Shown here piece by piece: positions 44,893-51,657 of a stretch of 64,000 bases of DNA; the first letter of the stretch is position 1; each line of letters begins with the position of its first letter. The translations under genes were made by a program, and so were the position numbers. The notes beneath the pieces are model-generated. The model was given only the letters and a program-made list of their open reading frames with translations, did no database searches and was not told where the DNA came from. The stretch comes from Alphaproteobacteria bacterium. Lineage in GTDB: Bacteria; Pseudomonadota; Alphaproteobacteria; CALKHQ01. The stretch is from the NCBI GenBank assembly GCA_965227515.1, contig CBDDFZ010000001.1, positions 3,392,001-3,456,000 of the forward strand, read 5' to 3'.

Positions 44893-45436
44893 GGCTGGCC
44901 ATTTCCCGTATTGGATGTTTGACGACGCCGATCATCACACAAAGGGCTTAACGGAGTTTGACCGTGCCCCGGCAACGCCTGGAAATCTCTTACAATTCAA
45001 TTGGTATTTGCAGTGGTTAATAGAAGCGACGGACGTTTCCCAAAAAACGAGCCGCAAGCAAGCTAGCGAGGAAAGCAGTCCGGCTCTGCTGATCAAACAC
45101 CAATAGAGATTTGCACATATTACGACAAATTCATGAATAACTTGGCATTTTTCCGATTATTCTCTTATGGCGCTGCTTCCAGAGTAAGCGTAGTTAAACA
45201 TTACCATTTTGTTGAAACCAGGAGGTTTCGACAATCTGGTGATCAAAGCCCCGCCGAGCGCCCCCCCCACACGCCGGCGGGGCACTTGATTCTGGGCGCC
45301 GGAATCCCGGCGCGCGGGCGGCGTGAAAAAGTCGCTATGGTTAACCTTCGCGCAATTTGATCGAAATGTTCCGTTAATCCAACTTTGCCACGGTGCCTCC
45401 AGCGAAATCAGCCGACACTGGCTTTGGAGGCCAACC

Positions 45437-45631
45437 ATGGCAAATGTGAACAAGGACGACCGTCTCTCCCAGTTGCGCGAGTTGGAAAACCGCGCGAGCA
45501 TGAACTGGGCGCTGGCCCAGCGCGCCGAGCGCGAGGGTAATGAGGAGCTCGCCTTTCAGCTGGCCGCGATTGCGCGGGAGGCCGACGCGATGGCCATCTC
45601 CCGCCGCGACGGCGCCGCAGTCTGCTACTAG
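45437..45631 (+). CDS. Small helical hypothetical protein (64 aa)
   Basis: GGAGG RBS 6 nt before ATG, host-like codon usage; MANVNKDDRLSQLRELE... Confidence 0.7.
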   Translation: MANVNKDDRLSQLRELENRASMNWALAQRAEREGNEELAFQLAAIAREADAMAISRRDGAAVCY

Positions 45632-45683
45632 CCCCTCTTTTGAGCGTTTTCGCCGTCTGTACTGCGATCCGCGATTATTCGCA

Positions 45684-45725
45684 TTGAACACATCGCCTTT
45701 CCCGGCCATAGTCGATGTATCGACT
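45684..45725 (+). promoter_or_regulatory. Putative promoter overlapped by a palindrome
   Basis: TTGAAC-N17-CATAGT (45684-45712); inverted repeat AGTCGAT-gt-ATCGACT (45710-45725). Confidence 0.5.
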
Positions 45726-45749
45726 CAACAACGGAAAGGAGGTGATCCA

Positions 45750-45827
45750 ATGTCTAGCGAATTGCGCGTGGAGCGCTTTGCCCGGGTTCGGACGCAGACG
45801 ACGGAGCAGCCTCTGTTGGCCGTGTAG
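45750..45827 (+). CDS. 25-aa small ORF MSSELRVERFARVRTQTTEQPLLAV
   Basis: AGGAGG core 7 nt before ATG; stop TAG at 45825-45827. Confidence 0.55.
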   Translation: MSSELRVERFARVRTQTTEQPLLAV

Positions 45828-45872
45828 AATCCAGGATCAGTGATCCAGGGCGCGTTCAACGCCCAATTTGTG

Positions 45873-45900
45873 CGGGGCTGCCGAAAGGCAGCCCCGTTTT
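45873..45900 (+). terminator. Rho-independent terminator
   Basis: CGGGGCTGCC-GAAA-GGCAGCCCCG-TTTT. Confidence 0.85.
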
Positions 45901-45933
45901 CATTTGCCGGTCACCGCCTGTCCGCAGCCCGCG

Positions 45934-47277
<1,344 letters not shown>

Positions 47278-51581: not shown

Positions 51582-51657
51582 TCCCCGGTAGCTCAGTTGG
51601 TAGAGCAGGTGGCTGTTAACCACCCTGTCGGCGGTTCGAGTCCGTCCCGGGGAGCCA
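51582..51657 (+). tRNA. tRNA-Asn (GTT)
   Basis: Acceptor stem TCCCCGG/CCGGGGA, anticodon arm GGTGG-CTGTTAA-CCACC, GGTTCGAGTCC T arm, encoded CCA; 76 nt. Confidence 0.97.

What the first reader, a model, noticed from the sequence alone, without database searches (positions are those of the whole stretch)
45684..45900. Mini transcription unit with a 16-nt perfect complement of the 16S rRNA 3' end fused to a 25-codon ORF
Seen: promoter-like TTGAAC-N17-CATAGT, then GAAAGGAGGTGATCCA (45734-45749) immediately followed by ATG, the ORF MSSELRVERFARVRTQTTEQPLLAV, small hairpins and a GAAA-tetraloop terminator. Known: the conserved 16S tail is TGGATCACCTCCTTT(C), so pairing runs far beyond a normal 4-8 nt Shine-Dalgarno and fills the whole spacer; very long SD duplexes slow ribosome escape. 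Inference: an RNA that captures or parks 30S subunits, interacts with pre-16S 3' maturation, or sponges anti-SD (CCUCC) sRNAs, with a peptide whose LLAV end resembles ssrA-type degrons and may be disposable. The 5' end resembles my memory of the alphaproteobacterial sRNA BjrC1505, whose function I do not know to be established. This is the best candidate for an undescribed system in the window.
Basis: partly seen in the sequence, partly recalled or inferred. Interest (0 to 1): 0.78.

Follow-up and report, generated by a model that had tools for sequence, protein, structure and literature searches.

The report
Ribosome-docking small mRNA (rre/CC2171 type)
This is a real small RNA whose leader matches the end of the ribosome's 16S RNA perfectly, but the type was already described in 2016 (rreB) and is in Rfam; its cellular role is still unknown.

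Summary
Window 45734-45749 is a perfect 16-nt complement of the genome's own 16S 3' end. It is followed by ATG, a 25-codon ORF and a terminator.

It is not an undescribed system. The stretch gives a full-length but sub-threshold match to Rfam RF01867, the CC2171 sRNA (38.9 bits against a cut-off of 75; E 1.2e-6). It also meets the sequence definition of the 'rre' small mRNAs of Hahn et al. 2016 (PMC5711450). Their rreB binds 30S subunits, is weakly translated, and is degraded in a start-codon-dependent way. Its function is called 'elusive'.

What I add:
- The motif occurs in 74 of 401 genomes sampled from the class. A reversed-pattern control gave 0.
- The TGATCC extension is conserved when it is not imposed by the search (38 of 46 exact).
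- The ORF is open and 18-35 codons long in 51 of 51 aligned members. Its codons show no coding-type substitution pattern: 79/75/64 by codon position, against 332/207/1044 in flanking genes.
- A conserved segment inside the ORF pairs with the SD.
- RF01867 also hits rreB-type loci.

Verdict: a new member of a known kind.

The parts
45684..45712 (+). Putative sigma-70-type promoter: -35 TTGAAC (45684-45689), 17-nt spacer, -10 CATAGT (45707-45712)
   Evidence: Read in the sequence. Not called by the consensus scan. Homologues mostly show TTG and CATAnT-like hexamers at the same distance from the CAAC leader. The transcription start is not mapped.
45726..45733 (+). Leader CAACAACG, predicted single-stranded, just 5' of the 16S complement
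   Evidence: The two A's of CAAC are conserved (one invariant, one at least 90%) in 51 aligned members, although not imposed by the search. Mean unpaired probability is 0.6-0.95 over the first seven modelled positions. The Rfam CC2171 model starts here.
45734..45749 (+). 16-nt perfect complement of the own 16S rRNA 3' end (extended Shine-Dalgarno)
   Evidence: Predicted duplex -29.7 kcal/mol. Conservation across the class.
45750..45827 (+). sORF: ATG, 25 codons, TAG stop
   Evidence: The frame is open and 18-35 codons long in 51 of 51 aligned members, against 12 of 51 and 9 of 51 for the other two frames. The peptide has no Pfam or NCBIfam family and is not in the protein collection. No third-position excess among substitutions.
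45757..45764 (+). 5' strand (GCGAATTG, codons 3-5) of long-range helix P1
   Evidence: Pairs with 45864-45871 in the MFE fold. 7 of 8 pairs show changes on both sides among 20 relatives, and 76% of cells are paired.
45797..45814 (+). Internal anti-SD segment GACGACGGAGCAGCCTCT inside the sORF (roughly codons 16-22), predicted to pair with GGAGGT / TCC / TGTC of the SD and start region
   Evidence: RNAalifold consensus. 99.2% and 95.7% of cells are paired, with one-sided changes only. It is the MFE pairing of the nascent 95-105-nt transcript. The motif lies in all three reading frames among relatives.
45828..45863 (+). 3' domain with small hairpins (for example GGATC-AGT-GATCC at 45834-45846)
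   Evidence: MFE fold of the own RNA. A comparable hairpin is visible in relatives in alignment A2. It was not tested formally.
45864..45871 (+). 3' strand (CAATTTGT) of long-range helix P1
45872..45901 (+). Intrinsic terminator: 11-bp stem, GAAA loop, T run
   Evidence: 9 of 10 terminator pairs show changes on both sides in relatives.

Best explanation
**What it is.** Window ~45720-45901 (+) is a stand-alone gene for a small mRNA of about 180 nt. It belongs to the alphaproteobacterial 'rre' class, whose founding members are rreB and rreR. Rfam models the Caulobacter-type members as the CC2171 sRNA.

**Proposed mechanism.**
1. The single-stranded leader and the first bases of the 16-nt complement act as a toehold for the free 3' tail of 16S rRNA in a 30S subunit.
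2. Full pairing gives 16 bp at about -30 kcal/mol. It displaces a competing segment of the RNA itself (45797-45814, inside the sORF) and docks the 30S tightly.
3. Because the duplex fills the whole SD-to-start spacer, and codons 3-5 are held in long-range helix P1, initiation is slow. The RNA therefore sits on 30S subunits and is translated only weakly.
4. When a ribosome does translate the roughly 25 codons, it unzips the internal anti-SD and the RNA is turned over.
5. The peptide is probably a by-product. What is conserved is that a frame of fixed length is read.

**Shown and inferred.**
- Shown here: the anatomy, the conservation, the covariation, and the ORF statistics.
- Shown in print for rreB only: 30S binding, weak translation, and start-codon-dependent decay.
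- Inferred: transfer of those properties to this locus, toehold displacement, and a non-functional peptide.

The physiological role is unknown.
For: **Identity**
- RF01867 gives a full-length match (model positions 1-159) at E 1.2e-6, with an identical 5' consensus.
- The same model hits loci that fit published rreB (14-codon GTG ORF next to tRNA-Gly) at 44.5 and 41.9 bits.
- The locus meets Hahn et al.'s sequence criterion: at least 16 nt of complementarity to the 16S 3' end, directly before a sORF.

**Conservation**
- The pattern AGGAGGTGATCCNDTG is found in 74 of 401 genomes of the class, mostly once per genome. The reversed-pattern control gave 0 of 401.
- In a phylum sample it is found in 63 of 115 same-class genomes and 7 of 286 genomes of other classes. 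None of those 7 sites is rre-like.
- Of the 77 sites, 64 are rre-like with 18-35-codon ORFs.
- When the 3' extension is not imposed, it reads TGATCC in 38 of 46 sites, TGGTCC in 4, a one-base variant in 3, and an unrelated sequence in 1.
- The GAA preceding AGGAGG was not imposed and is at least 90% conserved.

**ORF**
- Frame 0 is 18-35 codons long in 51 of 51 members. The other frames reach that range in 12 of 51 and 9 of 51.
- Substitutions in 19 close pairs fall 79/75/64 by codon position. In flanking genes of 8 of the 12 genome pairs tried they fall 332/207/1044.
- The motif GGAGCAGCCTCT lies in frame offset 2 in 16 members, offset 0 in 3, and offset 1 in 3.

**Structure**
- The SD:anti-SD helix is predicted independently in both subfamilies.
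- At the one freely varying SD-side position, 3 of 4 departures from the commonest pair are compensated: AU 15, UA 1, CG 1, GC 1, UU 1.
- The whole tested structure is 90.5% paired, against 46-57% for slid controls. 0 of 500 shuffles reach the observed values.
- The own RNA folds at -85.9 kcal/mol, z-score -5.4.

**Published experiments on rreB** (PMC5711450)
- The RNA co-sediments with 30S subunits.
- The 5' extension is needed for localisation to the ribosome-containing fraction.
- Translation is weak.
- Changing the start codon to a stop codon raises the half-life from 10 to 37 min.
Against: - The Rfam score (38.9 bits) is far below the curated cut-off of 75, so by Rfam's own rule this is not a member of RF01867.
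- The published experiments were done in another organism, on a member with a 14-codon GTG ORF and 17 nt of pairing. This locus has ATG and 16 nt, and Hahn et al. found ATG to be translated better than GTG.
- The promoter is weak by consensus and was not called by the scan.
- Single-sequence ensemble folding only partly supports SD sequestration. The mean probability that GGAGG pairs inside the ORF is 0.31, and it exceeds 0.5 in 12 of 51 members. For the own RNA it is 0.46, and the full-length MFE leaves the SD free.
- Forcing the SD helix in the own RNA costs 6.8 kcal/mol.
- RNAduplex z-scores for the SD against the RNA body are modest: median -2.0, with 26 of 51 below -2.
- The SD side is nearly invariant, so most support for the SD helix comes from one-sided changes.
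- A strictly kept ORF could also mean that the peptide matters. Hahn et al. report peptide conservation within Bradyrhizobiaceae and Rhodobacterales.
- Five loci with the same leader encode 49-59-aa signal-peptide proteins, so the leader can also serve real protein genes.
- Overexpressing rreB gave no growth phenotype, so no function is established.
Confidence: 0.75

Rival explanations
1. It is simply a small-protein gene. The 25-aa peptide is the active product, and the extended SD only sets its expression level.
For: An ORF with a start codon at fixed spacing is present in every member, and its length is held at 18-35 codons in 51 of 51. Hahn et al. report peptides conserved within Bradyrhizobiaceae and Rhodobacterales and detected an RreB-EGFP fusion. 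Five relatives with the same leader encode 49-59-aa proteins with a signal peptide.
Against: There is no third-position excess among substitutions: 79/75/64, against 332/207/1044 in neighbouring genes. The best-conserved internal motif lies in all three frames among members. Peptides are unrelated between subfamilies. The peptide has no Pfam or NCBIfam family. RreB and RreR were unstructured in solution, and overproduction had no effect.
Confidence: 0.15
2. It acts mainly in trans as a base-pairing RNA. Either the SD-like leader sponges sRNAs that carry CCUCC anti-SD motifs, or the internal mimic of the 16S tail, once freed by 30S binding, masks the SDs of other mRNAs.
For: The RNA carries both a long SD and a conserved anti-SD segment. 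It has its own terminator, has no conserved gene neighbours, and is structured like an sRNA (z-score -5.4). From recall only, not from any call: alphaproteobacterial sRNAs often use CCUCC motifs.
Against: The conserved extensions (GAAA at the 5' side, UGAUCC at the 3' side) match the 16S tail specifically, not a generic CCUCC motif. The start codon and the fixed ORF length would be unexplained. The conservation of the anti-SD segment is already explained by pairing in cis. No target is known.
Confidence: 0.08
3. It is a chance or trivial feature: an unusually good SD before a random short ORF, or a stray fragment of the rrn operon.
For: GC-rich DNA leaves many short frames open. In the other two frames, 28 of 51 and 25 of 51 members have no stop within the first 18 codons. 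The same 12-mer also occurs inside ordinary genes (6 coding-context sites).
Against: About 0.003 copies of the 16-mer are expected by chance in this genome (arithmetic). The identity to the rrn locus stops at 16 nt. The element is conserved, mostly as a single copy, in 74 of 401 genomes of the class, with 0 hits for the reversed control. It shows covarying structure.
Confidence: 0.01

Closest known systems
rreB of Bradyrhizobium japonicum and rreR of Rhodobacterales (Hahn et al., RNA Biol 2016/17, PMC5711450; abstract, Results and Discussion read)
   Same: A stand-alone small mRNA of about 165-190 nt with its own promoter and terminator. It has 16-17 nt of perfect complementarity to the 16S 3' end running up to the start codon, a very short ORF, a predicted hairpin that covers most of the SD while leaving its 5' end free, and no conserved gene neighbourhood outside the family. 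[quoted passage not shown]
   Different: This locus has ATG rather than GTG, so 16 rather than 17 paired nt; Hahn et al. mention ATG only for Azospirillum. Its ORF has 25 codons, against 14 and 18, and its peptide is unrelated. The anti-SD lies deep inside the ORF and competes with a long-range helix. None of the biochemistry has been done for this locus.
Rfam RF01867, CC2171 sRNA of Caulobacter. Found by Landt et al. 2008 (recalled; the paper is not held). Northern-confirmed in Methylorubrum extorquens (bioRxiv 10.1101/2022.01.24.477521; passages read).
   Same: The 5' consensus CAACAA-N-GAAAGGAGGUGAUCCA-(G/A)UGUCU is identical. The model aligns end to end (positions 1-159). Both have a long-range helix starting just after the start codon and a terminator with the same GGGCCGCC-type stem.
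   Different: The score is 38.9 bits, against the gathering score of 75. The middle of the RNA belongs to a different subfamily: my 'type B', which carries GGAGCAGCCUCU instead of CCUGGAUCGUCGCC. Rfam files the family as a non-coding sRNA. The passages I saw do not mention the ORF or the 16S complementarity.
BjrC1505 sRNA
   Same: An alphaproteobacterial sRNA that is annotated alongside CC2171 in Methylorubrum.
   Different: There is no match to that family at E up to 10 in the Rfam scan of 45400-46100. The resemblance is not real.

Membership tests
rre small mRNAs (Hahn et al. 2016) | [quoted passage not shown] | tested here: met
   45734-45749 is the exact complement of the end of the single 16S gene.
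rre small mRNAs (Hahn et al. 2016) | The complementarity region is directly followed by the start codon of a very short ORF | tested here: met
   ATG at 45750 and 25 codons. In rreB and rreR the first base of GTG is part of the pairing. Here ATG ends the pairing at 16 nt.
rre small mRNAs (Hahn et al. 2016) | Stand-alone small transcript (about 165 nt) with its own promoter and terminator | tested here: inconclusive
   The terminator is predicted. A promoter-like pair is present but not called by the scan, though it is positionally conserved in homologues. The transcript itself could not be tested.
rre small mRNAs (Hahn et al. 2016) | Tight association with 30S subunits, weak translation, start-codon-dependent decay | not testable with these tools
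   Known only for rreB.
Rfam RF01867 (CC2171) | Covariance-model score at or above the curated gathering score (75 bits) | tested here: not met
   38.9 bits, E 1.2e-6, model positions 1-159. rreB-type loci also score below the cut-off, at 44.5 and 41.9 bits. Only 2 of 41 related genomes scored above it.
Rfam RF01867 (CC2171) | Consensus 5' tail, long-range closing helix and terminator | tested here: met
   The 5' tail is identical. The closing helix covaries among 20 relatives. The terminator is predicted.
BjrC1505 sRNA | A match to the Rfam model of that family | tested here: not met
   It is not among the matches at E up to 10.
ssrA-type C-terminal degron | A conserved hydrophobic C-terminal tail (such as LAA) across homologues | tested here: not met
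   The C-termini of homologous ORFs vary freely, for example LLAV, LLVA, LTAA, LTTA, SAAI, SRSA. This was judged by eye, and no degron assay was possible.

The most novel reading that the evidence does not exclude
The rre/CC2171 RNAs are not small-protein genes. They are a class-wide RNA switch gated by the ribosome. A mimic of the 16S 3' tail embedded in the ORF holds the SD shut. Only a 30S subunit with a free, fully matured 3' tail can invade, starting from the GAAAG toehold. The ORF serves as a ruler of fixed length that a ribosome must traverse to unzip the mimic. The output is either ribosome-dependent decay of the RNA or release of the mimic to act on other SDs. The cell would thereby read out its pool of free, mature 30S subunits. 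The peptide would be waste.
Probability: 0.15. Interest if true: 0.65.

Novelty: new member of a known kind. Interest (0 to 1): 0.33.

Why it matters
The locus itself is one more member of a class that is already published. Two things make it worth recording.

First, the class has had no known function since 2008 (CC2171) and 2016 (rreB), although it is widespread. It was found in 63 of 115 complete genomes of the class in one sample (one of the 63 is an unpublished genome, G756).

Second, in the papers I could search, the two literatures do not cite each other. Rfam-based annotation therefore calls these loci a non-coding sRNA, while the rre paper calls them small-protein genes.

The comparative results here point future experiments at the act of translation and at the RNA switch rather than at the peptide. 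Those results are a fixed ORF length without coding-type substitutions, an internal anti-SD that is conserved and compensated, and a competing long-range helix.

Tried and rejected
**RNA evidence.** The look-up of sequencing runs listed no RNA holder, only two runs kept as contigs whose kind is not on record. I therefore did not use read laying. This says nothing about expression.

**Protein searches.**
- Exact look-ups of the own peptide and of 5 homologous peptides found nothing. ORFs this short are probably not called by gene finders.
- Pfam and NCBIfam gave no family for the peptide or for the upstream 64-aa ORF.

**Synteny.** No neighbouring gene is shared beyond genus or family level among 51 loci. 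The largest cluster covers 5 loci. This agrees with Hahn et al.

**Thermodynamic tests of SD sequestration** gave only partial support. I rely on the comparative data instead.

**Not done.** I did not build a covariance model of my own. The helix counts come from MAFFT alignments A2 and A3, so helices in the poorly aligned middle and 3' domain were not tested.

**Papers.**
- Landt et al. 2008 is not held. What I say about it is recalled, or taken from the Methylorubrum preprint.
- In Schrader et al. 2014 (PMC4117421) I saw only passages. Its supplementary tables might show whether the Caulobacter ORF has ribosome footprints. The supplementary alignments of Hahn et al. might also bear on the claims here.

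**'Not in print' claims.**
- The claim that CC2171 and rre are not linked in print rests on searches and on look-ups. It covers the held library only.
- The claim that no functional follow-up exists rests on searches.

**Rows dropped before the counts.** Of the 77 pattern sites:
- 26 were left out of alignment A1 because no terminator was called or the stretch was too long.
- L008 was left out because its contig ends 20 nt upstream of the motif.
- L005, a TGGTCC variant found by the Rfam model, was added.

Thirteen of the 26 were later read and are rre-like with 18-32-codon ORFs. The other 13 are 5 long-ORF loci, 1 site cut by a contig end, 4 sites inside a coding context, and 3 others (L033, L070, L074).

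Full report
**1.

- TTGAAC at 45684-45689, 17 nt, then CATAGT at 45707-45712.
- GAAAGGAGGTGATCCA at 45734-45749.
- ATG at 45750.
- A 25-codon frame (MSSELRVERFARVRTQTTEQPLLAV) closed by TAG at 45825-45827.
- A GC-rich hairpin with a GAAA loop at 45872-45897, followed by a T run.

The genome has two contigs, 5.52 Mb and 66.6% G+C, and holds one 16S gene. The last bases of that gene are the exact complement of the 16-mer. The 16-mer occurs only twice in the genome, once at the rrn locus and once here. Beyond the 16 nt the two places share nothing, so this is not an rrn fragment. The predicted duplex is -29.7 kcal/mol, against -8.7 for GGAGG alone.

The promoter scan does not call the TTGAAC/CATAGT pair.

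**2. It is a known RNA**

A permissive Rfam scan of 45400-46100 gives RF01867, 'caulobacter sRNA CC2171', at 45726-45895 on the + strand. The score is 38.9 bits and E is 1.2e-6. The match covers model positions 1-159 and has the same 5' consensus, CAACAA-N-GAAAGGAGGUGAUCCA-(G/A)UGUCU. The score is below the family's cut-off of 75, so by Rfam's rule the locus is a relative, not a member. No BjrC1505 match appears.

A literature search then found Hahn et al., RNA Biol 14:1353 (PMC5711450; abstract, Results and Discussion read). They describe rreB of Bradyrhizobium japonicum as follows:
- It is a 165-nt mRNA with 17 nt of perfect complementarity to the 16S 3' end and a 14-codon GTG ORF.
- It co-sediments with 30S subunits, and the 5' extension of the SD is needed for that.
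- It is translated only weakly.
- Its half-life rises from 10 to 37 min when the start codon is replaced by a stop codon.
- Overexpression does not affect growth.
- A BLASTN search found 16-17-nt analogues before sORFs in Caulobacterales, Rhizobiales, Rhodobacterales (rreR, 18 codons) and Rhodospirillales.
- The function is called elusive.

This is the same kind of element as the one in the window. CC2171 has been seen on Northern blots in Methylorubrum extorquens, with function unknown.

The rre paper does not contain the words CC2171, Rfam or Landt. The Methylorubrum preprint does not contain rreB, Shine-Dalgarno or 16S. No paper in the held library joins the two.

I checked the link directly. 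Two loci have a 14-codon GTG ORF next to tRNA-Gly(tcc), which is the published context of rreB. RF01867 hits them at 44.5 and 41.9 bits.

**3. Distribution**

RF01867 found matches in 12 of 41 related genomes, two of them above the cut-off. Of the 13 places:
- 10 carry the exact motif in an rre-like setting.
- L005 has TGGTCC instead of TGATCC.
- L013 lies in a coding context.
- L014 lacks the motif.

The pattern AGGAGGTGATCCNDTG hits 74 of 401 genomes drawn evenly from the class, at 77 places and mostly once per genome. The reversed pattern hits none.

In a phylum-wide sample it hits 63 of 115 genomes of the class (one of them, G756, is unpublished) and 7 of 286 genomes of other classes. I fetched all 7 of the other-class sites. 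None has the leader, and five run into long ordinary ORFs.

Gene neighbours are not conserved beyond genus or family level.

**4. Is the long pairing itself conserved?**

The pattern above imposes AGGAGGTGATCC, so two tests avoided that circularity.
- The three bases before AGGAGG were not imposed. They read GAA in at least 90% of 51 aligned members, and in 87 of all 111 distinct pattern sites held. They pair with the last bases of the 16S rRNA.
- A search that fixed only CAAC-N4-GAAAGGAGG-N7-start found 46 places in 45 of 401 genomes. The free positions read TGATCC in 38, TGGTCC in 4 (G.U keeps the pair), a one-base variant in 3, and something unrelated in 1.

An earlier version of the second search had my spacing error and found nothing.

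**5. The ORF is kept, the peptide is not**

In the 51 aligned members, the frame set by the start codon runs 18-35 codons in all 51, with a median of 25. The other two frames fall in that range in 12 and 9 of 51. They have a stop before codon 18 in 23 and 26 members, and no stop by codon 35 in 16 members each. Thirteen further members that I had set aside have ORFs of 18-32 codons. rreB-type loci have 14.

Several results argue against selection on the peptide:
- Peptides differ completely between subfamilies.
- In 19 close pairs with equal ORF length, substitutions fall 79/75/64 on codon positions 1/2/3. Flanking genes were found for 8 of the 12 genome pairs tried, and there the split is 332/207/1044.
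- The best-conserved internal motif of the window's subfamily, GGAGCAGCCTCT, lies at frame offset 2 in 16 members, offset 0 in 3, and offset 1 in 3.

The conservation inside the ORF is therefore at the RNA level. Pairs are not independent, and RNA constraints could mask weak selection on the peptide. Even so, I see no coding signature.

Five loci with the same leader carry 49-59-codon ORFs with a signal-peptide-like start. They are an exception I cannot explain.

**6. Structure**

RNAalifold predicts that the SD and start region pairs with a segment inside the ORF. It does so separately for 20 members of the window's subfamily and for 19 Caulobacter-type members:
- In the window's subfamily, GGAGGU/UCC/UGUC pairs with GAC..GGA..(G/A)CCU(C/U)(U/C). 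In the window this segment is 45797-45814.
- In the Caulobacter type, GGAGGUGAUCCAGUGUC pairs with GACCUGGAUCGUCGCC. That partner is a close copy of the 16S tail.

In the window's subfamily 99.2% and 95.7% of cells are paired, with changes on the ORF side only. In the Caulobacter type, the one freely varying base on the SD side is compensated in 3 of 4 departures: AU 15, UA 1, CG 1, GC 1, UU 1.

A second helix, P1, joins codons 3-5 (45757-45764) to the bases just before the terminator (45864-45871). It has changes on both sides in 7 of 8 pairs.

For the whole tested structure, 90.5% of cells pair, against 46-57% when the partners are slid. None of 500 shuffles reaches the observed values. The tool warns that related sequences can beat shuffles without any structure.

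P1 and the SD helix cross, so they are either alternatives or a pseudoknot. In the own RNA:
- The full-length MFE (-85.9 kcal/mol, z-score -5.4) has P1 formed and a free SD.
- Forcing the SD helix gives -79.1 kcal/mol.
- The nascent 95-105-nt transcript folds with the SD shut.

Ensemble calculations across the 51 members are equivocal. The mean probability that GGAGG pairs inside the ORF is 0.31, and it exceeds 0.5 in 12 of 51 members. The leader is mostly unpaired.

**7. Reading**

The locus is a new member of the rre class, which overlaps Rfam CC2171. The most likely mechanism is the one Hahn et al. propose, sharpened by the comparative data:
1. The 16S tail invades from a single-stranded toehold.
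2. It displaces an internal anti-SD, and the 30S subunit docks through 16 bp.
3. Initiation is slow because the spacer is paired and P1 blocks the mRNA channel.
4. Occasional translation of a frame of fixed length opens the RNA and leads to its decay.

I hold the identity at about 0.9 and this mechanism at about 0.5. The stated confidence of 0.75 is for the statement as a whole, with its inferred steps marked. What the cell gains from the element is unknown.

**8. What could not be done**

- No run on record as RNA was listed for this organism.
- The supplements of the two key papers are closed.
- The Landt 2008 paper is not held.

Noticed in passing
L022, L043, L045, L085, L086 (relatives' loci; ORF references): Five loci have the same CAAC..GAA-AGGAGGTGATCC leader and a terminator, but a 49-59-codon ORF with a signal-peptide-like N-terminus. 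Four of the five carry an A-E/D-C motif after it. They match no NCBIfam family above cut-off. L085 still matches RF01867 at 43.8 bits. They may be rre loci that gained, or kept, a real exported small protein.
   Followed up: partly
L013, L057, L069, L082, L083, L098: The 12-mer AGGAGGTGATCC followed by a start-like codon also sits inside a conserved coding context, in a stretch that translates as ..DFEHERREEVIQ... From recall only, this looks like a DnaE-type polymerase. It is a perfect extended SD inside a gene, not an rre element. It could pause ribosomes or start internal translation.
   Followed up: no
window 45437-45631 (+): A 64-aa ORF with its own GGAGG lies immediately upstream of the element on the same strand. 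It has no Pfam or NCBIfam match, and no shared neighbour turned up among the relatives' loci.
   Followed up: partly
window 45934-47271 (-): A convergent class-III aminotransferase gene (Pfam PF00202, E 2.4e-84) ends about 35 nt from the element's terminator. The hairpin may therefore terminate transcription in both directions.
   Followed up: no
G000 C1:3794600-3796099: The 5.5-Mb, two-contig genome holds only one 16S rRNA gene.
   Followed up: no
G190 (L042 and L046): One genome of the class sample carries two rre-like copies of different subfamilies, one with a GTG 25-codon ORF and one with an ATG 21-codon ORF. In the phylum sample several genomes have 2-3 pattern sites (G599, G608, G634, G708, G759). 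Of those extra sites only L097 and L098 were read, and both lie inside long ORFs.
   Followed up: partly
window 51582-51654 (+): A tRNA gene is the only Rfam match above threshold in the whole window.
   Followed up: no
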